IMG/VR virus record: IMGVR_UViG_3300036826_000588
Location: 25,828 to 89,827 of that record
Direction: 5' to 3' (one strand)
Length of the DNA stretch: 64,000 nucleotides
DNA from: a virus
Below are positions 21,248 to 49,400 of this stretch, piece after piece; within the stretch, counting starts at the first letter, position 1; every line of letters begins with the position of its first letter. The translations under genes and the position numbers were made by a program. Below the pieces are notes generated by a model that had not been told where the DNA came from, did not search any database, and worked only from the letters and a program-made list of their open reading frames with translations.

Positions 21248-21300
21248 GCACCTGCCCGGGTCGCTTCGCGCGCGCGAGGCGGTAGCGTTGAAATTGGGTG

Positions 21301-21329: not shown

Positions 21330-21605
21330 CAAAGCGTCGTGAGGACACAACCCTTCTTCGTCAACCAGCAGCCGTGCATCGCCCGTGTGGGCGATCCCAT
21401 GGCACCCTGGCATGCCGTCGAAGGCCAGGCCCTCGGGACGAAGGAGGTAGGAGCGGGTAGGTAGAGCTCCGAAGCTCCGGAACCCGCTCCCGAAGGGCCT
21501 GGCAGGACGCCAGGCCCTTCGTCGTTGTAGGGGCGCGGAGTCGCCCCGATCGTCCGGCTGAACTTTGTCATCCGAATAGAGCGAAGAACACCAACGGTGG
21601 CGGCT

Positions 21606-35708: not shown

Positions 35709-35847
35709 GGACGGGCCGAACGGGGGGCCGTTAACGCTGATTGGTACAGCACCTCCCTCACAAGGAGTTCCACTCGGTTCGAATCCGGGGAACAGCCCGG
35801 CGCAAGCCGGGAAAACCGGTCGCCCAAAACCGTATGTCCGTCCGCCA
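35709..35847 (+). ncRNA. Y RNA candidate (Ro60-associated, with tRNA-like domain)
   Basis: Terminal stem GGACGGGC/GTCCGTCC, GCCGAACG motif, internal D-, anticodon- and T-like arms, 3' GCCA; 65 nt upstream of Ro60. Confidence 0.8.
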
Positions 35848-35912: not shown

Positions 35913-37697
35913 ATGCAGCGGTACACCGGCATGTTGTCGCGCACCCCTCAGCAGGCCCCGATTCCGGGCGTGCCTGGAATGGTGCCGAACCGTGCCGGTG
36001 GCTGGGGCTTCGAGGTCAGCGACCGCGTCCTGGCCGAGCGTTTCATCCTCCTCGGGACGGTCCACGGCTCGTACTACGCAGAGCCCGAGCAGCTCACAGG
36101 CCGGGCAATCGACGCGATCGACCGGCTGCTGGAGAGCGGCGACGGCGAGTGGCTGGTGCAGAAGATCGTCGAGATCAGCACCCTTGGCCGCGCGCCCAAG
36201 CAGGACCCTGGCATCCTCGCCCTCGCCCTGGCGCTGAAGACCGCCCCTGACCGGCGTACGCGCCGCCTGGCGGCCGACGCGGCTCCGCGCGTGTGTCGGA
36301 CCGTCTCCACCGCTTCGGACCTGGCTGACGCTCTCAAGGGCCTCGGGCCGGCGCCGGCGGCCGAAGGCCACAATCGCGAGAAGCCGGCCATCCGGTCGCG
36401 TGCCCAGCGACGCGCCATCGCAGGCTGCTTCGAGGCGTGGGCCCGCGATCCAGCACGGCTGGCCTACCAGCTCATCAAGTACGGGCGGGCCGCCGACAAC
36501 CGGCGCCGGGGGCCGGACGGTTCCCAGGGAGCCATCTGGCGCGCTGTCGACCTGGCGCGGCTGTCGCACTTCCGTGCCTCCAATCCAGAGGTCGACGCGC
36601 TGATGTCGTGGCTGCACGGCCGGAAGGTGGCCAACCTGCCCGCGCAAGTGCGGGCCTACGAAGAGGTGCAGCGCGTGGCGGCCGTGCCGGGGCAGCTCAG
36701 CGAGCACTTTGCTGGCGAGAAGTTCGCCACGGAAGCGCGCGCCAAGGCTACAGAGCGCATCGCCGAGCTCGTGCGCGAGCACCGGCTGCCCTGGGAGTGC
36801 GTCCCAAGCGAGTTCGTGAACCTGCCGAGCGTCCAGCGGGCCCTCTTCGAGGACATGCCCCTGCACACGATGATCCGTCAGCTCGGCCGGCTGACGGCGG
36901 GCGGTCTCTTCGACGCGCCTTCGAGCGTCCAGATGGCCGTCGACCGGCTCCGCGACGTCGAGCGGATCCGGAAGGCGCGCGTGCACCCGATGGCCGCCTA
37001 CCTGGCCGCCATGATCTACGGCAGCGGCCACGGACTGAAGGGCAAGGGCTCATGGCGGCCGGTCCCGGAGATCAAGGACGCCCTCATGGCGGCCTTCCTG
37101 GGTTCCTTCCGCAGTCTGAATGCCAGCGGCAGGCAGATCGTCGTCGGCGTCGACTGCTCCGGCTCGATGGTGCAGCACGACGTGCTCGGCATCCCGGGCT
37201 TCTCGGCACAGGAGGCCGCCTTCATCATGGCGTGGGCCACGGCACGCGTCGAACCGCGGGCCCGCGTGGTGGCCTTCGGCGAGCAGGCCGAGGAGATCGA
37301 GCTGCGCGACGTGCAAACGCTGGACGAGCTGCGGCGCCGGGCGCGCATGGTACGGATACGCCACAACAGGGGTACTGACTGCTCGCTGCCGATCCTCTAC
37401 GCCCTGGAGCGCCCAAACTGGGGCGAAGTGGATGCGTTCGTGATCTACACGGACGAGGAGACCTGGTACAGCCCGACGATCCACCCGATCGAGGCGTTGT
37501 GGCAGTACCGGGCCCGCTGGGAGCGGCGGACGCGGCTCGTCTCCGCCGCGCTCGTGGCCAACCACTACAGCCTCGTGAACACGGCGCCGGACCGCGGCGA
37601 GTCCGTTCAGGACGATGCCGGCGTGCTCGCGGTGACGGGCTTCGACTCGGCCGCGCCAGCGATCATCGCCGACTTCGTGCGCTCAGGGGACGGATAG
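35913..37697 (+). CDS. rsr: Ro60/TROVE domain RNA-binding protein with vWA domain
   Basis: NRAGGWGF...ERFILLGT..GSYYA, LIKY, RQLGRLT, VGVDCSGSM (MIDAS), GTDCSLP, YTDEETW, GFDSAAP. Confidence 0.93.
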   Translation: MQRYTGMLSRTPQQAPIPGVPGMVPNRAGGWGFEVSDRVLAERFILLGTVHGSYYAEPEQLTGRAIDAIDRLLESGDGEWLVQKIVEISTLGRAPKQDPGILALALALKTAPDRRTRRLAADAAPRVCRTVSTASDLADALKGLGPAPAAEGHNREKPAIRSRAQRRAIAGCFEAWARDPARLAYQLIKYGRAADNRRRGPDGSQGAIWRAVDLARLSHFRASNPEVDALMSWLHGRKVANLPAQVRAYEEVQRVAAVPGQLSEHFAGEKFATEARAKATERIAELVREHRLPWECVPSEFVNLPSVQRALFEDMPLHTMIRQLGRLTAGGLFDAPSSVQMAVDRLRDVERIRKARVHPMAAYLAAMIYGSGHGLKGKGSWRPVPEIKDALMAAFLGSFRSLNASGRQIVVGVDCSGSMVQHDVLGIPGFSAQEAAFIMAWATARVEPRARVVAFGEQAEEIELRDVQTLDELRRRARMVRIRHNRGTDCSLPILYALERPNWGEVDAFVIYTDEETWYSPTIHPIEALWQYRARWERRTRLVSAALVANHYSLVNTAPDRGESVQDDAGVLAVTGFDSAAPAIIADFVRSGDG

Positions 37698-42690: not shown

Positions 42691-43269
42691 TCAGAGCAGC
42701 GTTGGCTGAGACGTTGCGAGGTCGTTTGCAGGAACGGCGGGCGCCGGCATGGTCAGGGCCTGTACGAGGAAGTTCGCGACGACGGGTGCGATGCCTGCGT
42801 GAGCGTTGCCGGCGACGTTGAGGGTCTTGATGCGGTTGCGGTGCAGCCACACGGGGAACTCGATCAGCTCCACTCCGTGGGCCCACACCTCGAACGTCTC
42901 CCCGTCCCACTCGTTGCGCATGGGGTCGTACCCGGGACGGGTCAGAACGATGTCGTAGTGGGGCTTCCCGAGCTGGCGGCAGCAGCGGAGGGTGAGGCGT
43001 TCGCCCGCGCTGTCGAAGTCATACGCGAACCGCACGGTGCCGTCCGAGTGCTCGACGTTGAGCCTGGTGCGGTACTGGTATCCCCACTCAGGGGTCTCCG
43101 TGAGGCCATACAGCGCGACGAGATCCGGACGTTGGCCGTTCGCGGTACGGCCGCCGCGGGGGATGTAGCCGCCTGTCTCCAGGCCGAGCTGACGGAAGGC
43201 GCGAAGCCCACCCTCGTCAGCGCCGATCTGGCACCCCGAGATCCCCTTGCGGACGAGCAGCTCAGTCAC
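42691..43269 (-). CDS. SLOG-superfamily putative molybdenum-carrier-like protein
   Basis: ISGCQIGADEGGL, GGYIPRG, YRTRLNVEHSDGT, LNVAGN. Confidence 0.85.
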   Translation of the reverse strand: MTELLVRKGISGCQIGADEGGLRAFRQLGLETGGYIPRGGRTANGQRPDLVALYGLTETPEWGYQYRTRLNVEHSDGTVRFAYDFDSAGERLTLRCCRQLGKPHYDIVLTRPGYDPMRNEWDGETFEVWAHGVELIEFPVWLHRNRIKTLNVAGNAHAGIAPVVANFLVQALTMPAPAVPANDLATSQPTLL

Positions 43270-43555
43270 GAGGGGAGTCTTCCCAGCCCATCGGCTCCTC
43301 GGCAATGGCCGCCTCGTGCGCGGCGATTTCCCGGCCGGCGAATTCGTCGTACAGCTCCTCCATGTCCATGCCGGTCATGGCGCAGATGGCGCGCATGATG
43401 CCCTGCCGGTACTCCGTCGCGAGATCCCTCTTCACTCGGTCCTCGGCGTTTCGGACCCGTATGCGGCGGGCGCGCGCGAAGGCGTCATCCAGCAGTTCGA
43501 TCGCAGCAGGGGTGAGGGGGGCCGGCTTTGGCTTCTCGGTGGCGGCATCGTTCAT
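43262..43555 (-). CDS. hypothetical protein (leaderless)
   Basis: TACAAT-N7-ATG. Confidence 0.6.
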   Translation of the reverse strand: MNDAATEKPKPAPLTPAAIELLDDAFARARRIRVRNAEDRVKRDLATEYRQGIMRAICAMTGMDMEELYDEFAGREIAAHEAAIAEEPMGWEDSPRD

Positions 43556-43686
43556 GCCAGCTATTGTAACACTACCGCCGTTGCTGTGCAGGGGTGCGCG
43601 CGGCTCGATGCGTTTCCCCCGCTTGGCTGAGATTCACCAGCCGCGAGCCGCACGCCAGGCTATTATACCGAACAACAGTTCGGGGG

Positions 43687-43714
43687 TTGCGTTCCGCGGC
43701 GGTATCGTTATAAT
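43687..43714 (+). promoter_or_regulatory. sigma70 promoter driving the ncRNA array
   Basis: TTGCGT-N16-TATAAT in an otherwise GC-rich region. Confidence 0.75.
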
Positions 43715-44423
43715 TGGAGGCGTCGGGCGGGGCGCGGCTCCGATCGAAGGAACCTCCGCCCCGACAAGAACCTTCCAAAGTGAAGACCGACTCCCCCGGG
43801 AAGGGGAGGTGCACCGCATGGCCCTGGCGCCAACGGCAGGGTGTGAGGTAGCTGAACTGGCTATCCTTGCACCTGACAGGGGGCGGCCGTGGATAGTCGG
43901 CAAGGGACAAGCACCCCACCCCTTCCCGGGGGACCAACTTTGACTTCACCCCCGCAGCCATGCTCGGTGGAGGCGCGAGGAGGGCTTGCCCTCCTCGCCC
44001 GCCCCGAGCGGCGCGGGTGTTATATGAGGGACTGGGAGCGCCCGCAAGCCCCGTTGCGGGAGTAGAGCTGAAAGGGCAGGCCCGCTCGCGGCGCCGGTCG
44101 GTTCTCCCAGGTACAGCCTGGGCGCCTCCCGGCACTCCCTCATCGACCTCCCAGGGGAGGGGAGCCACTCGACGTGACCGACGGAAATGCGAGCGCTGCC
44201 GCAGTGCTGTGCGGCCAACAGCGAAGTGCACGCGCCGAGGTCATAGGACTGGAACGGGGGATGCACGTACTCCCTGAAGGCCAGTTCAGATCGCGGGGTG
44301 GAAGGGTCATGGGTTACGGCCGACCCTCCGCCCCCGGTCACGTCGGGGATGGCCTCCCGAGGAACCGGGGATTGGCCGCGTGGAACCCGTCCGCCACAGG
44401 GATCGGGGTAACGCGGTAGCGGT

Positions 44424-44503
44424 GGATGCAGGTGGTCGCAAGGGGAGCACGCCCCTCGCAAGGGGGAAGTGACCCGTTCGAATCGGGTCTCTGTATCCGT
44501 CCA
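44424..44503 (+). ncRNA. tRNA-like element (9-bp acceptor-like stem, 6-bp T-stem)
   Basis: GGATGCAGG/TCTGTATCC; GACCCG-TTCGAAT-CGGGTC; CTCGCAA loop; ends GTCCA. Confidence 0.6.
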
Positions 44504-44509
44504 ACCGCT

Positions 44510-44589
44510 GGGGCACAGAAGGGTTCGACGGGGCTGAACGCCGAAGTGCACGGCTCCGGAGGTCGGTTCGACACCGACGTGCTCCACCA
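44510..44589 (+). ncRNA. mini-tmRNA (tRNA-like domain only)
   Basis: GGGGCAC/GTGCTCC-A-CCA with G3-U70; stemless D-loop ending GGTTCGAC; helix 2a GGGGCTG/CGGCTCC; GGAG linker; T-arm. Confidence 0.8.
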
Positions 44590-44954
44590 ACGTGATCTCG
44601 GATCAGAGGCCGGGAAGCTGCGAAAGCCCGTGGGCGTGCTGGGCACTGGCCTGGTGAGCGGCGCCGGCCTCCGATCCGGGGGCACCCGGAACGAGAGGCG
44701 CTGGTTCCCGTAACGGCAAGAGGGCAGAGCCCGGTCAGACGTCACCGGTGACGCGCCCCACCAGCTTCGACGGCAGTCGGGAAAGAGCGTGGAGCGGCTC
44801 GGCCGGCGCCTCTCACTCAACCTTCGTACGCAAAGGGCGGGACAGCCCAAAGCGGATGGGGCCCCGGGGCCGGCAAAGTCCGGCCCCGCCTCCCGCTGGG
44901 AGCTGGTGAGTTCTGTGGCGGGCCTCGCCGGTTCCCAACGGGTGGAGAGAAAGG

Positions 44955-45000
44955 GCAGAGCCCGGGTGCACATCGGATGCGCCCGGGCTCTCTGCGTTTC
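44955..45000. terminator. strong hairpin where plus- and minus-strand transcription converge
   Basis: GAGCCCGGGTGCA-N7-TGCGCCCGGGCTC. Confidence 0.6.
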
Positions 45001-45489
45001 AAGCGCGCGCGCGGATGCTGTCCACGTACCGCGTCAGCCCAACCCACGCCACTCCGGCGTGCCGGTTCGCGTACTCGACGCCGCGGCGGGCGTCAGCGTG
45101 CTCGCGCATGCGGACCGTGGCGCCGGCCGCCCACTCCTGGTCCAGGCCACCATCAGGCCCGAGCAGCAGCTCGATGTCCTCCAGGTCCATCAGGGGCAGA
45201 CCCTGCGGGCACGCCACGGGGATCGAGCGCTTCGCATCCCAGCCGGCTTCGTAGACCGCGTGCAGCGCCGCTCGTGCGCCCGTGCAGGCAACGCAGCCGG
45301 CGGCGTGTCGCAGCCAATCCAAAGGGCCGGGCCCCGAGGATCCGAGAACGCGGAGACGTGGCCGCTCCTCCTGGTCCCCCAGAAGGGGGAGCTGACTGAA
45401 TGTCGCTGCTGCAACTGCCATCTCTGCCGCCTTGTCGTATTGGCTGTTGAGCCATACAGTACAACAAGACGGCGCATGCGGCTACTGCT

Positions 45490-46452
45490 TCAGATCGAAA
45501 CCTTGCTCGCGGCGTTGTTGTCGAACAGCCCACGGCGGATGTAGCCGCCCGCGACACGGGAGGACTTCCAGCGTCCCTGGGCCATGATCGCCGCCAGGCT
45601 GGCACCTCCAGCGTCTGCGCTGGTCGCCATGCCGGCCCGCAGGCTGTGGCCGGCGTAGTCGGCCGGATCCAGGCCGATGCGCCGGCAGCCACGCTTCACG
45701 ATGAGCGCAACCGCTTCTGGGGTCATTCGGTCTTCGCCGACGTGGTCCCACCTGCTGACCGGGTGCCAGATGGCACCTGAGTTGATGCCGGCGCCGTCGA
45801 GCCAGGCGCGCAGGGCTCGCACCGGGCACGTGGCCGCGTCCGAGCGCCGTGGTACCGCCACACGCTGGCCCAGGGCCTCCTGGTCGGTCTTGCTCCGCCC
45901 CAGGAGGATCACCAGGCCGTCCTCCAGCCACTCAACGTCCTCGACGTCCTGGCCGGCCAGCTCCGAGCGCCGGAAGCCGCCGAGCAGGCCGACGAGCAGC
46001 AGCGCTCGATCGCGGCGGCCGGCGTGCGTGTCGGTGGGGACCTCTTCCAGCAGCAGGCGGAGCTGCTTGCCGGTCAACGCCTTCTTCGGCTTGGGCGCGC
46101 CGCCCTTCTGGCGCCGGATGCCGGCCATCACCTCCTGGACCCGCCGGTCACGGGTGGGGGAGTTGTGGCCGGCCGTCTCGTGCGCCTTCGCCAGCGCCGC
46201 GAGCCGGCGGCTGATGGTCGCCGTGCTTCGTCCGAGCTGGGCCAGGTGGGTGATGTAGCCCGCCACCGTCGCCGGGGCGGCCGGAAGTGGATTGCGGCGC
46301 CGCTCGGCGCACCAGGCGATGAAGCTCTCCCAGTCGCTGGTGTATGCGCGCCGGGTGTTCCCGGCCACAGCGGCGGCCGCGTACTCGGCCATCTGGTGCG
46401 CGAGCGCGGCCGACATGGGGTGCTCGGCGCGTTGCGCCAGCTCCTCGGTCAT
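45490..46452 (-). CDS. Cre-like tyrosine recombinase
   Basis: SAM-like N-terminus; RDRALLL..FRRSEL, SKTDQ, GHSLRAG, GRW, YIR (R-K-H-R-W-Y intact). Confidence 0.9.
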   Translation of the reverse strand: MTEELAQRAEHPMSAALAHQMAEYAAAAVAGNTRRAYTSDWESFIAWCAERRRNPLPAAPATVAGYITHLAQLGRSTATISRRLAALAKAHETAGHNSPTRDRRVQEVMAGIRRQKGGAPKPKKALTGKQLRLLLEEVPTDTHAGRRDRALLLVGLLGGFRRSELAGQDVEDVEWLEDGLVILLGRSKTDQEALGQRVAVPRRSDAATCPVRALRAWLDGAGINSGAIWHPVSRWDHVGEDRMTPEAVALIVKRGCRRIGLDPADYAGHSLRAGMATSADAGGASLAAIMAQGRWKSSRVAGGYIRRGLFDNNAASKVSI

Positions 46453-49400
46453 CGCCAGTCGACCTCCACCTCGTTGCCCCCGAGACGCTCGTAGATGTCC
46501 CGAGCCCAGCCGCGGCGGTCGGAGCTGACGGCCTCGACCCACGCGATGCGGAGTTCGTCCTCGCTGAACGCTCCCCTCTCCTCCTCGCAGGCGACCATGA
46601 AGCGCGCCAGCGTCGGGATCGGGGACGGCCCGGAGCGTCCCGGTCGGCTGGACTTGGTGGCATCGCCCATGCCGCTATTGTAGCGGTATCGCTGACGCCG
46701 GGCGTCCGAAGTGGGGGGCTGGCGGGGGATAGGCGCGCCCGAAGGCACCACAGTCAGGGCAGTTGAAGCGGAAGCCCTCGACGGCGGCCGCTTTCACCTG
46801 GACGCCTGCCACCGGCGCAAGCCCGGTCACCACCAAGCCTGCGGTCACGGTGCAGTTGCGTTCGCCGCAGTTCGGGCACGGCGGAAGCGTAGCGTCGTTG
46901 TCAGCCATCAGACCCTCCCGTCGCGAACTGGTGGTGCGGGCACTTCCCGGGCCACCCGCACGTGCAGCCGCGGTAGTGGCCGTGCACGTCGGCGCTGCGC
47001 AGCTCGCCGCATTCGGCGCACGCCGTCTCGGGCAGGAACCGCAGGCTGTCATCGGCGACCTGGAGGCGGATCTCTGGCGGCGCTCCGAAGAGTTGAGCGT
47101 TCTTGGTCGTAAGCGCCCGGACCGTGACCGTGCCCGGCATCTGGAAGGCGGCGTGGGGGTCGAACATCACGCGGGCGCCGGCCGGCAGGACGCCCAGGTC
47201 ACCGCTGGTCAGGAAGATCGCAAACACTGGCGTCGCGACCGTACGCCAGTCGTCGCCTGCGGTGTCTGGCGTCATCGCGCCGCCGCCCTGGCCGCCGCGG
47301 CCGCCCGGATCAACGTTGCGTGGCGGGCCACCTCGCCGGTGGGCAGGATCATCCAGGCCGCGTAGTTGCCGAACCTGGCGGCCGATGTGGTCCACACGTG
47401 CCGGAACGCCTCGAACTGGTCCGGGCTGATCCAGCCCAGGCGATGCCACTCCTCCACCTGGGCCAGCGTAGCGTTGGCCAGGTAGTGCGCATCGCACTCC
47501 TCGCACCGGCCGAGGAAGTGGTTGGTGTCGGCGCCGGGCAGGTAGTGGGTGCTCAAGCGGTGGCTCCGGTCACGAGCAGGTCGAACGGCACCCGCGGCAG
47601 CCGGCGCAGCATCTGGCCCAGTCCGTCCACGCTGGAGGCGTTGTACCAGAAGACGCGCCGGGCCCAGCCGTTGTCGGACGAGTGGTCGAACCAGACCAGC
47701 CGGGAGCCGTCGCGGCTCTGGACCCGCATGATGCACACGCCCAGCGGCGTCTTGGCGACCACTGTGCCGCCGTCGACAGCCACGTGGGTCGCATGGTAGG
47801 CGTCTGCGCAGAGATCCTCGCGCATCAACTCGTGTTCGGGCGACTCGCCGAGCGTGATGGCAGGAACGGTCCAGCGGGCCGGCAGGGCGCTCACTGCCTC
47901 GCCTCGTACTCATCGGCCACCTGGGCGGCCAACTCGAAGAACTCCCCGGGCACCTCGTATTCCTCGGGCGGGCCGAAGGCGTTGAAGTGCTGACAAGCAT
48001 CCTCGGCCAGGTGCGTCGCATCGACCGTATGGATAATCACGTGGTCAGCGGCCACGGAGCGCATGTAGCGGAGAACGGCGTCCGGGTCGAGTGGGTTGGC
48101 AGTGGCAGCGTTCATGCTCTAATTGTAGCCGCGTGCCCCGTTCAAGGCAACAGCTCTTGGAAGCCCTTGGGTCCCAGGTGCCTCCACCGCGGCCGGCCGC
48201 CCTCGACCCACACGAGATCGAAGGTCTCGTCGTGGAGGGGCTGCCGGTAGCTCCCGCTGTCGTAGTGCTCGACCATCGCGAACTGCGTGGTGTCGAGCCG
48301 GCGCGCCACCGCGGCCCAGACGTGCTCGGCGGCGTTCGTGATGCTCATGCCCGAGTTGCTGGCCAGCTCGGTCACCAGGGCGACCTGGGCGCCGTCGCGG
48401 CCGCGGTACACGCGCAGCCGGCAGTGCGTTGGCGCCTGGCTCGGGAAGGCGTACGGCGACCGGACGTAGAGGTCGGCGTCCAGCTCCGGAGCGTCGAGAG
48501 CTGCAATCGTGCTCATGGGCAAGGTGGACTCCTTCTTCAGAGGGTGGCCGTTCATGCCCCAATTATAACTCGTGATAACGGTCATTATCACGAGTTAGTA
48601 ACGGGCCGGGGGAGGAGCCTCGGAGCAGGCCGCTGTGGCCATCTAGCCGTTACGCCCATCGGCCTATCGCGGCAGCTTGCCGTTGAGCAGCATCGATCTT
48701 TTGCTCAAACTCCCGCTGCTGGATATGCCAATGCAGGCATCGGCGCTCCGGGATAATCGCCAATTGGCACAATTCGCATTGCTGTTGATGCGCCCAATCG
48801 GCCCATTGGCGACCCCACCGCCAGAGCACGACGATCAGCCGGGCCAGCGGCGGCGCCATGAGCCGGTACGCGAGCCTTCCGACGCCCGTCATGGGAGCTG
48901 GATCTCGGAATCGATTCGGGTGTCGCGCGTGAGCAAGCTTCGGCCGAGCGGCGTGATGGTCGCTCGGTTCAGCCACAGGCGTTTGTCGAGCTCCACCAGG
49001 CCGAAGGCGAACAGCCGCGCCAGGTAGACGCGTGGTCGCAGGGGCGCCGTGCTCGCCGGCCGGATGCCGGCGACGATGTAGAGCACCTCGAAGTGCTCCA
49101 GCTCCAGGTTGGCCTCGCGCCATTCGAGCTGGCCAGGACTCTGGCCGCCGCGGCCGGGTGGCCGGCTCGTCAGGTGCCACCAGCCGCAGGCCGAGCACGG
49201 GTAGATCCCACGGACCGGTGCTCCGGAGCGCCACTTCGACATCAAGGACTGAACCGCGTAGTCCAGCGACCGCTTCACCTTCCCGGAAGCCGGGCAGACA
49301 TCGCGCGTGGCGGGATCAGCGACTGGAACCCTTGGAACCCTGCCGGAGCCGCGGCTTCCTCGCCGCCGGGCACGAGTTCGCGCGGTGACCTTGGGAGCTA

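What the first reader, a model, noticed from the sequence alone, without database searches (positions are those of the whole stretch)
43687..45000. Promoter-driven 1.3-kb array of about 10 structured RNA modules with no credible protein gene
Seen: a TTGCGT-N16-TATAAT promoter, then back-to-back modules each closed by its own helix: 43722-43765; 43792-43936 (15-bp perfect stem plus CCA); 43951-44017 (rod with CUUG tetraloop); 44024-44143; 44161-44357 (13-bp stem); 44376-44415; a tRNA-like unit; the mini-tmRNA; 44592-44685; 44693-44814 (14 bp); 44837-44937; then a terminator. Non-Watson-Crick pairs are mostly G-U on the + strand, which fits selection on RNA structure. Inference: either a polycistronic operon of RNA decoys or mimics processed like tRNAs, or a new giant ornate RNA. 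GOLLD and ROOL are established phage RNAs found near tRNA clusters, and GOLLD can embed tRNAs. This is the best candidate for an undescribed system in the window.
Basis: partly seen in the sequence, partly recalled or inferred. Interest (0 to 1): 0.88.

Follow-up and report, generated by a model that had tools for sequence, protein, structure and literature searches.

The report
Phage operon of structured non-coding RNAs
A soil phage carries a 1.3-kb gene-free stretch, also present in one related phage, that looks like a single transcription unit for about a dozen folded RNAs; only one of them, a cut-down ribosome-rescue RNA, can be named.

Summary
Window 43560-44995 is non-coding and folds far better than shuffled sequence (whole-region z -6.0 on +, against -0.9 to -2.4 for three coding controls). 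It lies between a promoter with the only + strand TATAAT in 64 kb and a strong hairpin terminator. One syntenic relative was found, metagenome contig L008. It keeps the promoter, the 5' hairpin, modules B, C, E, F and J, the mini-tmRNA and the terminator. The other slots hold unrelated sequence that is again closed by long helices.

The only nameable unit is 44510-44589, a tag-less tmRNA that keeps only the tRNA-like domain. This type is known from mycobacteriophage DS6A. No other module matches any Rfam family.

My best reading is a + strand operon of stable RNAs that is cut at least around the mini-tmRNA. The function of the other modules is unknown; decoy roles are a guess.

Limits:
- There is only one relative.
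- Covariation is beyond chance in only three helices.
- There is no strand-specific RNA evidence.
- The 'tRNA-like unit' is not conserved.

Earlier AI notes of this scan report mini-tmRNAs inside small structured-RNA clusters on other phage DNA. This is a larger, high-GC case of that theme. Novelty: new variant of a known kind.

The parts
43660..43681 (+). AT-rich block just upstream of the -35, in the position of an UP element. It also holds a - strand TATAAT (43667-43662).
   Evidence: 21 of 22 bases are identical in L008. TATAAT on the - strand. The UP-element role is an inference.
43687..43714 (+). Promoter: TTGCGT, 16-nt spacer, TATAAT. The spacer and -10 form the box GGCGGTAnnGTTAyAAT.
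   Evidence: Sequence. Kept in L008 as TTGCGC-16-TATAAT. The only + strand TATAAT in the window. The same box lies in inverted orientation at 43563-43579, the promoter of the divergent gene. Not listed by the consensus scan.
43722..43765 (+). Module A: hairpin at the likely 5' end of the transcript.
   Evidence: Folds: (z -1.18; the - strand folds better). 91% identical in L008, with one U-A to C-G double change. A role in stabilising the 5' end is an inference.
43766..43791 (+). Single-stranded linker, 46% GC.
   Evidence: 25 of 26 bases are kept in L008, with one deletion. GC content.
43792..43936 (+). Module B: 14-15-bp perfect terminal helix, a 5-bp second helix and a multibranch core. The ends read U(-1) ... 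A-CCA.
   Evidence: z -4.62. The terminal helix and junction strands are identical in L008. The second helix has a U-A to C-G double change. The inner hairpin is replaced. Model R1 finds only the window and L008 copies.
43951..44017 (+). Module C: 67-nt rod hairpin with a CUUG loop.
   Evidence: z -6.17, and the same on the - strand. In L008 the base is identical and the tip is rebuilt with a GAAA loop, z -5.56.
44024..44143 (+). Module D: three-branch unit closed by an 8+7-bp helix.
   Evidence: z -2.55. It cannot be aligned with L008 (31%), whose slot holds an 86-nt unit closed by a helix of about 18 bp, z -6.10.
44161..44357 (+). Module E: 197-nt unit closed by a 13-bp helix. Its first hairpin (44178-44245) is nearly invariant.
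   Evidence: z -4.77. Closing strands are kept. The first hairpin is 96% identical in L008. The middle is replaced.
44376..44415 (+). Module F: small hairpin.
   Evidence: z -1.66. Two double changes against L008 under the consensus fold; one double change and one broken pair under the window-only fold.
44418..44509 (+). tRNA-like unit: 6-bp outer helix, 8-bp acceptor-like stem, T arm with UUCGAAU loop.
   Evidence: z -2.61. Not called by ARAGORN, by Rfam at E up to 10 or by R2 at E up to 1. Replaced in L008 by an unrelated 98-nt hairpin, z -3.42.
44510..44589 (+). Mini-tmRNA (tRNA-like domain only): 7-bp acceptor stem with G3-U70, A73-CCA, GGUUCGAC D-loop region, short capped helix 2, T arm.
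   Evidence: Rfam tmRNA model: 41.3 bits, matched end to end with 306 model positions deleted. Model R2, built from 10 other mini-tmRNAs: 58.4 bits, E 6e-12, the top hit in the window. Three double changes in L008, with G3-U70 kept.
44592..44685 (+). Module H: unit closed by a helix of about 20 bp with bulges.
   Evidence: z -3.75. It cannot be aligned with L008 (33%), whose slot holds a 122-nt unit closed by about 19 bp, z -5.11.
44693..44814 (+). Module I: unit closed by 14 bp (3 of them G-U).
   Evidence: z -1.47. Only its 3' strand is kept in L008, and the closing helix is not recovered there.
44837..44937 (+). Module J: two hairpins. The second is a 13-bp G-U-rich stem.
   Evidence: z -3.32 on +, -1.33 on -. 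Two double changes sit in a helix of 14 stacked pairs kept in both phages. L008 has an insert at the tip.
44957..44991 (.). Terminator hairpin, probably two-way. The stop codon of the - strand gene is at 44999.
   Evidence: z -5.25 on +, -5.09 on -. One G-C to A-U double change in L008. The terminator scan did not list it, because it lacks a U run.

Best explanation
A non-coding 'stable RNA operon' of a temperate-type, high-GC soil phage. A strong promoter (43687-43714) drives a + strand primary transcript of about 1.27 kb. The transcript starts with a protective hairpin (A), runs through about ten helix-closed modules and stops at a hairpin terminator (44957-44991).

The transcript is cut at least on both sides of the mini-tmRNA (44510-44589). 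Host RNase P would cut at its 5' side, and host nucleases would trim to the encoded CCA. Module B has the same U(-1) ... A-CCA ends and is probably released the same way.

The freed mini-tmRNA carries alanine identity and no tag template. The phage record encodes no SmpB, so the RNA must bind the host's SmpB and compete with host tmRNA.

The other modules are stable structured RNAs of unknown role, most likely sponges or mimics for host RNA-binding proteins. They behave as exchangeable cassettes.

Shown here: non-coding status, excess structure, conservation, the identity of the mini-tmRNA, the + strand bias. Inferred: transcription, processing, SmpB titration. Guessed: a decoy role for the other modules.
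For: 1. Non-coding:
- There is no codon-phase GC signal.
- Substitutions are even over the three phases and indels are many, while the neighbouring gene shows 20/29/54.
- The 6 longest ORFs have no Pfam hit.
- Antisense ORF translations are only 43-50% identical where the DNA is 70-83% identical.

2. Structure:
- Whole-region z is -6.0, with 0 of 40 shuffles as low; coding controls give -0.9 to -2.4.
- 6 of 12 modules have z of -3.3 or lower.

3. Selection:
- In the one relative, L008, the promoter, linker, A, B, C, the first hairpin of E and the mini-tmRNA are 79-96% identical (B 87% over its aligned columns, 73% with gaps).
- The phase holding the third codon positions of the adjacent gene differs at about 29% (54 of about 185 sites).
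- Slots D, H and the tRNA-like slot hold unrelated sequence that again folds into helix-closed units, z -6.1, -5.1 and -3.4.

4. Covariation:
- Double changes inside helices of 8 or more stacked pairs kept in both phages occur at 5 pairs in 3 helices: mini-tmRNA acceptor, J and terminator.
- A parallel-register control never exceeds 7 stacked pairs.

5. Strand:
- The + strand has the lower MFE in 10 of 12 modules.
- It holds 41 G-U pairs against 23 in the window and 39 against 27 in L008.
- L008 carries a real gene with a ribosome-binding site on the same strand inside the array; the gene has 166 homologues.

6. Mini-tmRNA:
- The type is known from phage DS6A, where a similar molecule is said to inhibit tmRNA, perhaps by titrating SmpB (passages of PMC4131195 and PMC11915505).
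- No SmpB, CCA-adding enzyme or RtcB family match was found in the 89.8-kb phage record.

7. Weak hint of RNA:
- Contigs from two soil RNA libraries lie on parts of the array.
- One 175-nt contig matches 44686-44860 exactly and bridges modules I and J.
- Such contigs show neither strand nor transcription.
Against: - There is only one relative (L008; L009 is a shorter, overlapping contig with the same match statistics). A true covariation test is therefore not possible.
- With structures taken from the window alone, 31 of 75 pairs that carry a substitution stay standard pairs and 44 do not. Slid-partner controls keep 28-51%, so there is no overall excess. The broken pairs lie mostly in replaced interiors, where the alignment is unreliable.
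- Double changes in helices of 4-7 stacked pairs are at chance level: 57 against 52 in the control.
- Fixed 150-nt windows show no excess structure over the downstream coding flank.
- Modules A and I fold slightly better on the - strand, and C and the terminator fold equally on both.
- Neither the promoter nor the terminator passes the simple consensus scans.
- The mini-tmRNA stays under Rfam's gathering score (41.3 against 47).
- No processing site, RNA end or strand has been observed.
- The closing helix of module I is not kept in L008.
- The phage record is 87% complete, so the absence of SmpB from it is not proof.
Confidence: 0.55

Rival explanations
1. One giant ornate RNA, working like GOLLD or ROOL. 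The whole 1.27-kb transcript would fold and act as a unit, with the tRNA-like unit and the mini-tmRNA sitting in a linker between a 5' and a 3' domain, as tRNAs do in some GOLLD RNAs.
For: - It lies in a phage with 34 tRNA genes.
- GOLLD and ROOL are phage RNAs often found near tRNA islands. GOLLD has a less conserved 5' region, and tRNAs sometimes lie in its linker (passages of bioRxiv 10.1101/2024.12.08.627333).
- The whole-region z is -6.0.
- A 16-nt motif is shared by module E and the mini-tmRNA, and palindromic GUGCAC sites are enriched here. These could make loop-loop contacts; that is speculation.
Against: - GOLLD, ROOL and every other large-RNA family fail to match at E up to 10.
- Whole modules (D, H, the tRNA-like slot) are replaced by unrelated sequence, and a protein gene is inserted in L008. 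A tightly packed tertiary fold would hardly tolerate this.
- No long-range pairing rises above the control. The best has 7 stacked pairs, and the control also reaches 7.
- A mini-tmRNA needs a free CCA end to act.
Confidence: 0.12
2. Only the mini-tmRNA and the terminator are functional. The rest would be fast-changing spacer in which GC-rich hairpins arise and persist without a function of their own.
For: - Covariation beyond chance is seen only in the mini-tmRNA, J and the terminator.
- Several slots are not conserved in sequence.
- The overall pair test is null.
- In other phages mini-tmRNAs mostly sit alone in short gaps, for example in L021, L014 and L024.
Against: - A, the linker, B, C and the first hairpin of E are 79-96% identical (B 87% over its aligned columns), below the roughly 29% divergence at third codon positions next door.
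- The replaced slots still hold strongly folded, helix-closed units, z -5 to -6. Neutral spacer should not.
- The region is far more structured than coding controls.
Confidence: 0.15
3. A long structured leader or regulatory RNA of an mRNA. In L008 the array would be the 5' UTR of the 114-aa gene, and the window's copy has lost that gene.
For: - L008 has a + strand gene with a ribosome-binding site between I and J, inside the same promoter-terminator frame.
- That gene belongs to a real family of 166 homologues.
Against: - The window keeps the array without the gene.
- In 29 other phage loci that carry homologues of the gene, blastn finds no similarity to the array and a sequence pattern finds no mini-tmRNA there.
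- A leader of 1.1 kb with an embedded mini-tmRNA has no precedent that I know of (recalled, not searched).
Confidence: 0.1
4. DNA-level elements rather than RNAs: nested small inverted-repeat mobile elements, recombination sites near the integrase gene, or a replication origin.
For: - Modules are bounded by long inverted repeats and are swapped as blocks.
- A tyrosine recombinase gene lies 0.5 kb downstream, at 45490-46542.
- C and the terminator fold equally on both strands.
Against: - G-U pairs and folding energy favour the + strand in both phages.
- No module recurs elsewhere in the phage record or in any fetched locus, as mobile elements would.
- There are no iterons and hardly any direct repeats.
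- The mini-tmRNA changes both strands of its stems together.
Confidence: 0.05

Closest known systems
TLD-only (tag-less) tmRNA of Mycobacterium phage DS6A (tmRNA Website; Hudson, Lau and Williams 2014, PMC4131195; PMC11915505)
   Same: Unit 44510-44589 is little more than the tmRNA tRNA-like domain. It has a G3-U70 acceptor stem, A73-CCA, the D-loop region, a capped helix 2 and a T arm, and is encoded by a phage of a high-GC host type.
   Different: - Here it is embedded, without spacers, in a 1.3-kb array of other structured units under one promoter.
- I did not compare it with the DS6A sequence itself. A blastn of the unit against the phage collection gave only chance-level matches.
- The inhibition of tmRNA (Mao et al. 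2009) is known to me only as cited in PMC4131195.
RNA C and RNA D of bacteriophage T4
   Same: They are phage small stable RNAs that are not tRNAs, are made from a stable-RNA region, and have unknown roles (one passage of PMC3014915).
   Different: - T4 has two such RNAs inside its tRNA cluster.
- Here there are about ten units in their own transcription unit, 8 kb away from the last ARAGORN tRNA call at 35727-35798.
- No sequence comparison was made.
YrlA/YrlB Y RNAs of Mycobacterium smegmatis and other bacteria and phages (Chen et al. 2014, PMC4201824)
   Same: - They are tRNA-mimicking RNAs of which two are processed from one precursor. One is cut by RNase P and given CCA (passages).
- This phage also encodes Ro60 (Pfam).
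   Different: - No Rfam Y RNA or YrlA match in the array.
- The array lies 6.0 kb from the Ro60 gene (the tRNA-like unit 6.7 kb). That is beyond the 4 kb used in that paper.
- Binding to Ro60 is untested.
GOLLD and ROOL large ornate phage RNAs
   Same: They are large, highly structured, non-coding RNAs in phages that carry many tRNAs. GOLLD can hold tRNAs in a linker.
   Different: - No match to either family.
- Modules are swapped wholesale between two close relatives.
- No conserved pseudoknots or long-range pairs could be shown.

Membership tests
tmRNA, TLD-only form (unit 44510-44589) | 7-bp acceptor stem with a G3-U70 pair, discriminator A and an encoded CCA | tested here: met
   GGGGCAC pairs with GUGCUCC and is followed by ACCA. 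L008 keeps G3-U70 while pairs 4 and 6 change on both sides.
tmRNA, TLD-only form (unit 44510-44589) | tmRNA-type D-loop region (GG-UUCGAC) and a T arm with the GGUUCGA loop | tested here: met
   Aligned to the Rfam tmRNA consensus at both ends and to R2.
tmRNA, TLD-only form (unit 44510-44589) | No mRNA-like domain: no resume codon, tag frame or pseudoknots | tested here: met
   306 of 374 Rfam model positions are deleted, and only 12 nt cap helix 2. ARAGORN calls no tmRNA.
tmRNA, TLD-only form (unit 44510-44589) | Score against family models | tested here: inconclusive
   Rfam RF00023: 41.3 bits, under the gathering score of 47, and seen only in a 221-nt search (not listed). Five other phage mini-tmRNAs score 64-67 bits. 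R2, built without the window or L008: 58.4 bits, E 6e-12. The next hit is tRNA-Ala at 42.8 bits.
tmRNA, TLD-only form (unit 44510-44589) | Charged by AlaRS and bound by SmpB | not testable with these tools
   Needs biochemistry. The phage record has no SmpB family match.
tRNA (unit 44418-44509) | Cloverleaf recognised by tRNA finders | tested here: not met
   No ARAGORN call. No Rfam tRNA match at E up to 10. No R2 match at E up to 1. Only the T arm is canonical. The unit is not conserved in L008.
YrlA / bacterial Y RNA | Match to the YrlA model and a position within 4 kb of the Ro60 gene (criteria in PMC4201824) | tested here: not met
   No such Rfam match in 43300-45300. Ro60 is at 35913-37697, 6.0 kb from the start of the array and 6.7 kb from the tRNA-like unit.
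GOLLD / ROOL / other Rfam large RNAs (6S, SRP, RNase P, OLE, HEARO) | Match to the family covariance model | tested here: not met
   cmscan of 4227 families: nothing at gathering score. At E up to 10 only chance-level hairpin matches appear. The same holds for L008 at E up to 1. That GOLLD, ROOL and OLE profiles are in Rfam is stated in the bioRxiv paper; that the other families are in the library is recalled.
Sigma-70-type promoter | -35 and -10 hexamers with a 16-18-nt spacer | tested here: inconclusive
   The -10 is perfect and the spacer is 16 nt, but the -35 matches 3 of 6, so the scan does not list it. It is conserved in L008 and is the only + strand TATAAT in the window. No start site was mapped.
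Intrinsic terminator | GC-rich hairpin followed by a U run | tested here: inconclusive
   The hairpin has z -5.25 and one double change. The tail UCUGCGUUUC has no run of 5 U, so the scan lists nothing.

The most novel reading that the evidence does not exclude
A cassette-type 'RNA decoy operon'. Each helix-closed module would be a separately released, stable RNA that soaks up a different host factor: SmpB for the mini-tmRNA, and RNases, tRNA-targeting defence nucleases or Ro60-type proteins for the others. Related phages would swap modules in and out as the host's defences change. This would be an RNA counterpart of protein anti-defence islands.
Probability: 0.15. Interest if true: 0.85.

Novelty: new variant of a known kind. 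Interest (0 to 1): 0.6.

Why it matters
Phage non-coding RNAs other than tRNAs are few, and most have no known role (T4 RNA C and D, GOLLD, ROOL). This locus puts a tag-less tmRNA, whose likely target (SmpB and ribosome rescue) is known, into one unit with about ten unknown structured RNAs. The phage also carries 34 tRNAs, Ro60 and a 2H-type RNA ligase domain. That makes it a compact, clonable 1.4-kb test case for three questions:
- Do phages make operons of RNA mimics?
- How are such RNAs cut out of a common precursor?
- Why would a phage interfere with ribosome rescue?

If the modules prove to be exchangeable decoys, it would open a class of RNA-based counter-defence.

Tried and rejected
- Known RNA families: Rfam at gathering score and at E up to 10 gave only microRNA-like hairpin noise. 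The same held for L008.
- Cultured phage relatives: blastn of the region against 50,697 phage records found none. The portal protein is at most 31% identical to any of them. The 91-nt mini-tmRNA query gave only chance-level matches.
- Relatives through the flanking proteins in IMG/VR: none. In GTDB genomes: none.
- Protein search: P0001 has two relatives, P0005 at 89% and P0007 at 74%. P0002 has none.
- DNA patterns: the strict mini-tmRNA pattern gave 5 viral stretches. The relaxed one gave 23 viral and 33 genomic stretches, many of them neighbouring tRNA pairs. None shares any other module with the window.
- A 17-mer from module E hit 3 coding sites by chance.
- In L005 an apparent 1.6-kb gap before the mini-tmRNA turned out to hold a Clp protease gene.
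- Module B model R1: no paralogue in the window or in 30 loci.
- Count of perfect inverted repeats of 11 bp or more: 2 in the region, against a mean of 0.6 and a maximum of 3 per window of the same size. Not remarkable.
- Long-range pairing 44165-44170 with 44940-44945, with one double change: 7 stacked pairs. The control also reaches 7, so it was dropped.
- RNA libraries: runs X3 and X4 leave large parts of the array without cover. That says nothing. All listed runs are soil metagenomes, and the best DNA holder may be the source sample.
- Literature: searches turned up no description of such an array. One search found no paper. The library lacks most subscription journals, and supplements were not opened.
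Full report
Setting. The window is part of an 89.8-kb IMG/VR virus record, 87% complete by CheckV. It has 68% G+C and its DNA is held by soil metagenome runs. It encodes a terminase, a portal protein and a sliding clamp, and 34 tRNA genes at 21.6-35.8 kb. It also encodes Ro60, a protein with a 2H-type (LigT-like) RNA ligase/phosphoesterase domain, a cpYpsA-family protein and a tyrosine recombinase. Its portal protein is at most 31% identical to that of any cultured phage.

The region is non-coding. Between the - strand genes 43262-43555 (P0002) and 44999-45421 (P0001), the GC content of the three codon phases differs by 0.23 or less, against 0.27-0.55 in the flanks. None of the six longest ORFs matches Pfam. 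Against the relative described below, substitutions fall evenly on the three phases (18/20/18 and 31/21/23) and gap columns are frequent (26 in 482 and 64 in 471). The block that covers P0001 shows 20/29/54. Antisense ORFs are only 43-50% identical as protein where the DNA is 70-83% identical.

The structure is real.
Six of 12 have z of -3.3 or lower.
- Those borders were picked to close helices, so I also folded the whole 1281 nt. The result is -705.4 kcal/mol against -638.3 +/- 11.2 for 40 dinucleotide shuffles, z -6.0.
- Three coding stretches of equal length give z -1.2, -0.9 and -2.4.
- The - strand gives z -5.0.
- Modules cover 1137 of 1270 nt. The linkers have 56% GC against 70% in the modules.
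- Against this, fixed 150-nt windows that cut across modules are no better than the downstream coding flank. The count of perfect inverted repeats is also unremarkable.

One relative. No relative turned up in the phage collection, in IMG/VR or in GTDB genomes. A scan of JGI metagenome contigs with an alignment of P0001 and its two relatives found L008 (15.8 kb) and the shorter L009. L008 is syntenic over window 39.3-53.3 kb at 70-84% DNA identity. The array lies at L008:9461-11160 on the - strand.

What L008 keeps:
- The promoter, as TTGCGC-16-TATAAT, and the AT-rich block before it.
- Hairpin A (91%) and the linker after it (25 of 26 bases).
- B: terminal helix and junction strands identical; 87% over aligned columns, 73% with gaps.
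- The base of C.
- The closing helix of E and its first hairpin (96%).
- F.
- The mini-tmRNA (90%).
- The 3' strand of I, J, and the terminator.

What differs in L008:
- The inner hairpin of B, the tip of C (GAAA for CUUG) and the middle of E are rebuilt.
- Slots D, H and the tRNA-like slot hold sequence that cannot be aligned (31-39%). It again forms units closed by helices of about 16-19 bp, with z -6.1, -5.1 and -3.4.
- L008 also has a 410-nt insert between I and J. It carries a + strand gene with AAGGAGG before its ATG. The protein has 166 homologues and no Pfam or PHROG family. In 29 other phage loci with homologues, blastn finds no similarity to the array and a sequence pattern finds no mini-tmRNA there.

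How strong is the comparative support? It is modest.
- Under structures predicted from the window alone, 167 pairs are unchanged in L008, 14 keep pairing through one change, 17 through two, 44 break and 9 meet gaps.
- Among pairs with any change, 41% stay paired. Slid-partner controls give 28-51%. The breaks sit mainly in the rebuilt interiors.
- I also made a search free of any predicted structure, looking for double changes inside helices kept in both phages. It gives 5 pairs in 3 helices of 8 or more stacked pairs: the mini-tmRNA acceptor stem (2), the second hairpin of J (2) and the terminator (1). A parallel-register control never exceeds 7. Helices of 4-7 pairs are at chance level, 57 against 52.
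- The double changes in A, in the second helix of B, in F and in the T stem fit the predicted folds but do not stand out statistically on their own.
- The better argument for selection is rate. The conserved blocks differ by 4-21% (B 13% over its aligned columns). The phase that holds the third codon positions of P0001 differs at about 29%.
- Even the replaced slots stay strongly folded.

Strand. The + strand has the lower energy in 10 of 12 modules; A and I favour the - strand, and C is equal. The + strand folds contain 41 G-U pairs against 23 in the window and 39 against 27 in L008. Together with the orientation of the mini-tmRNA, of the promoter and of the L008 gene, this points to + strand RNA. 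Contigs from two soil RNA libraries lie on parts of the array. One matches 44686-44860 exactly and so bridges I and J. Such contigs show neither strand nor transcription, so this is only a hint.

The one nameable unit. In a 221-nt search, 44510-44589 aligns end to end with the Rfam tmRNA model at 41.3 bits, with 306 of 374 positions deleted. It has the G3-U70 acceptor stem, A73-CCA, the GGUUCGAC region, a helix 2 capped by 12 nt and a T arm. I built model R2 from ten other tag-less tmRNAs fetched from IMG/VR and one MAG, leaving out the window and L008. It scores the window's unit at 58.4 bits and L008's at 58.7 bits. The next hit is the phage's tRNA-Ala at 42.8 bits. This form is in print for mycobacteriophage DS6A ('TLD only'). 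There a similar molecule is said to inhibit tmRNA strongly, perhaps by titrating SmpB (passages of PMC4131195; PMC11915505). The phage record holds no SmpB, CCA-adding enzyme or RtcB family match, so the RNA must use host factors.

The other units.
- None matches Rfam.
- The 'tRNA-like unit' has a canonical T arm, but ARAGORN, Rfam and R2 do not call it, and it is not conserved.
- Module B ends like a tRNA: U before the helix, then A-CCA after 14 bp. The mini-tmRNA has the same ends. This makes B a plausible RNase P substrate, which is an inference. The abstract of PMC2190699, seen in a search listing, describes RNase E cuts just after CCA and RNase P cuts in polycistronic tRNA precursors of E. 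coli.
- Model R1 of module B finds no further copy.

Comparison with what is known.
- The locus works most like a phage stable-RNA operon. T4 makes RNA C and RNA D of unknown role from its tRNA region (one passage of PMC3014915).
- M. smegmatis makes YrlA and YrlB from one precursor, with RNase P cleavage and CCA addition (PMC4201824).
- It is not a member of GOLLD or ROOL. It does share with GOLLD a phage setting rich in tRNAs and tRNA-type units in mid-molecule.
- Earlier AI notes of this scan describe mini-tmRNAs inside clusters of small structured RNAs in marine phages, and suggest that odd tRNA-like units serve as cutting marks. I did not test those notes. This locus is a larger, high-GC case of the same theme.

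Verdict. My best reading, at confidence 0.55, is a + strand operon of stable RNAs cut at least around a tag-less tmRNA that competes for host SmpB. The remaining modules are exchangeable structured RNAs of unknown function. The locus is a new variant of a known kind. It is interesting but rests on two genomes and no RNA data.

Noticed in passing
window 43563-43579 (-), 43698-43714 (+), 21278-21294 (+): A shared box GGCGGTAnnGTTAyAAT covers the spacer and -10 of both divergent promoters: the array and the leaderless-looking gene P0002. With 2 mismatches it also lies just upstream of a TTGACC-17-TATGGT promoter before the first tRNA array. There are 5 matches with up to 3 mismatches against 0.49 expected. 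L008 keeps the box at both promoters. It may be a common regulator site for the phage's stable-RNA units.
   Followed up: partly
window 44217-44232 and 44537-44552; GTGCAC at 43809, 44226, 44546, 44966: A 16-nt motif (14 of 16 identical) recurs in the invariant hairpin of module E and in the cap of the mini-tmRNA helix 2. Its 10-mer core occurs 3 times in the window against 0.07 expected. L008 keeps both copies. Four of the window's 21 palindromic GTGCAC sites lie in this 1.3 kb. This could mean a shared ligand or loop-loop contacts. It is unexplained.
   Followed up: partly
window 44018-44049: Contigs of one DNA run and one RNA-library run carry the same 7 substitutions here. By hand, C44032>G and G44035>C would turn the closing helix of module D into 12 perfect pairs with 44132-44143. 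This would be a second natural variant that keeps a closed module.
   Followed up: no
L008:9670-10014 (-): A 114-aa protein (P0008) is inserted in the relative's array. It belongs to an unnamed family of 166 metagenomic homologues, with no Pfam or PHROG match. Homologues are present in 29 IMG/VR loci, where blastn finds no similarity to the array.
   Followed up: partly
L005:1959-2732 and 2896-2977: In another high-GC phage contig, a mini-tmRNA sits 160 nt downstream of a Clp protease family gene (PF00574, 72.7 bits). Two near-identical promoter repeats lie 1.2 kb upstream of it. The pairing of a tag-less tmRNA with a Clp protease is suggestive, because tmRNA-tagged proteins are Clp substrates (established knowledge, recalled).
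   Followed up: partly
window 43596-43655: A conserved inverted repeat (GCGCGCGGCTCG / CGAGCCGCACGC) and flanking blocks lie between the two divergent promoters. L008 keeps them. The role is unknown.
   Followed up: no
window 21330-21600: The 270 nt between the tRNA-array promoter and the first tRNA (tRNA-Asp, 21606) contain several GC-rich hairpins by eye. This may be another structured leader or small RNA.
   Followed up: no
window 45474-46686 against L008: The tyrosine recombinase gene next to the array (45490-46542) has no counterpart at the same place in L008. There 2.9 kb of other sequence replaces 1.2 kb.
   Followed up: no
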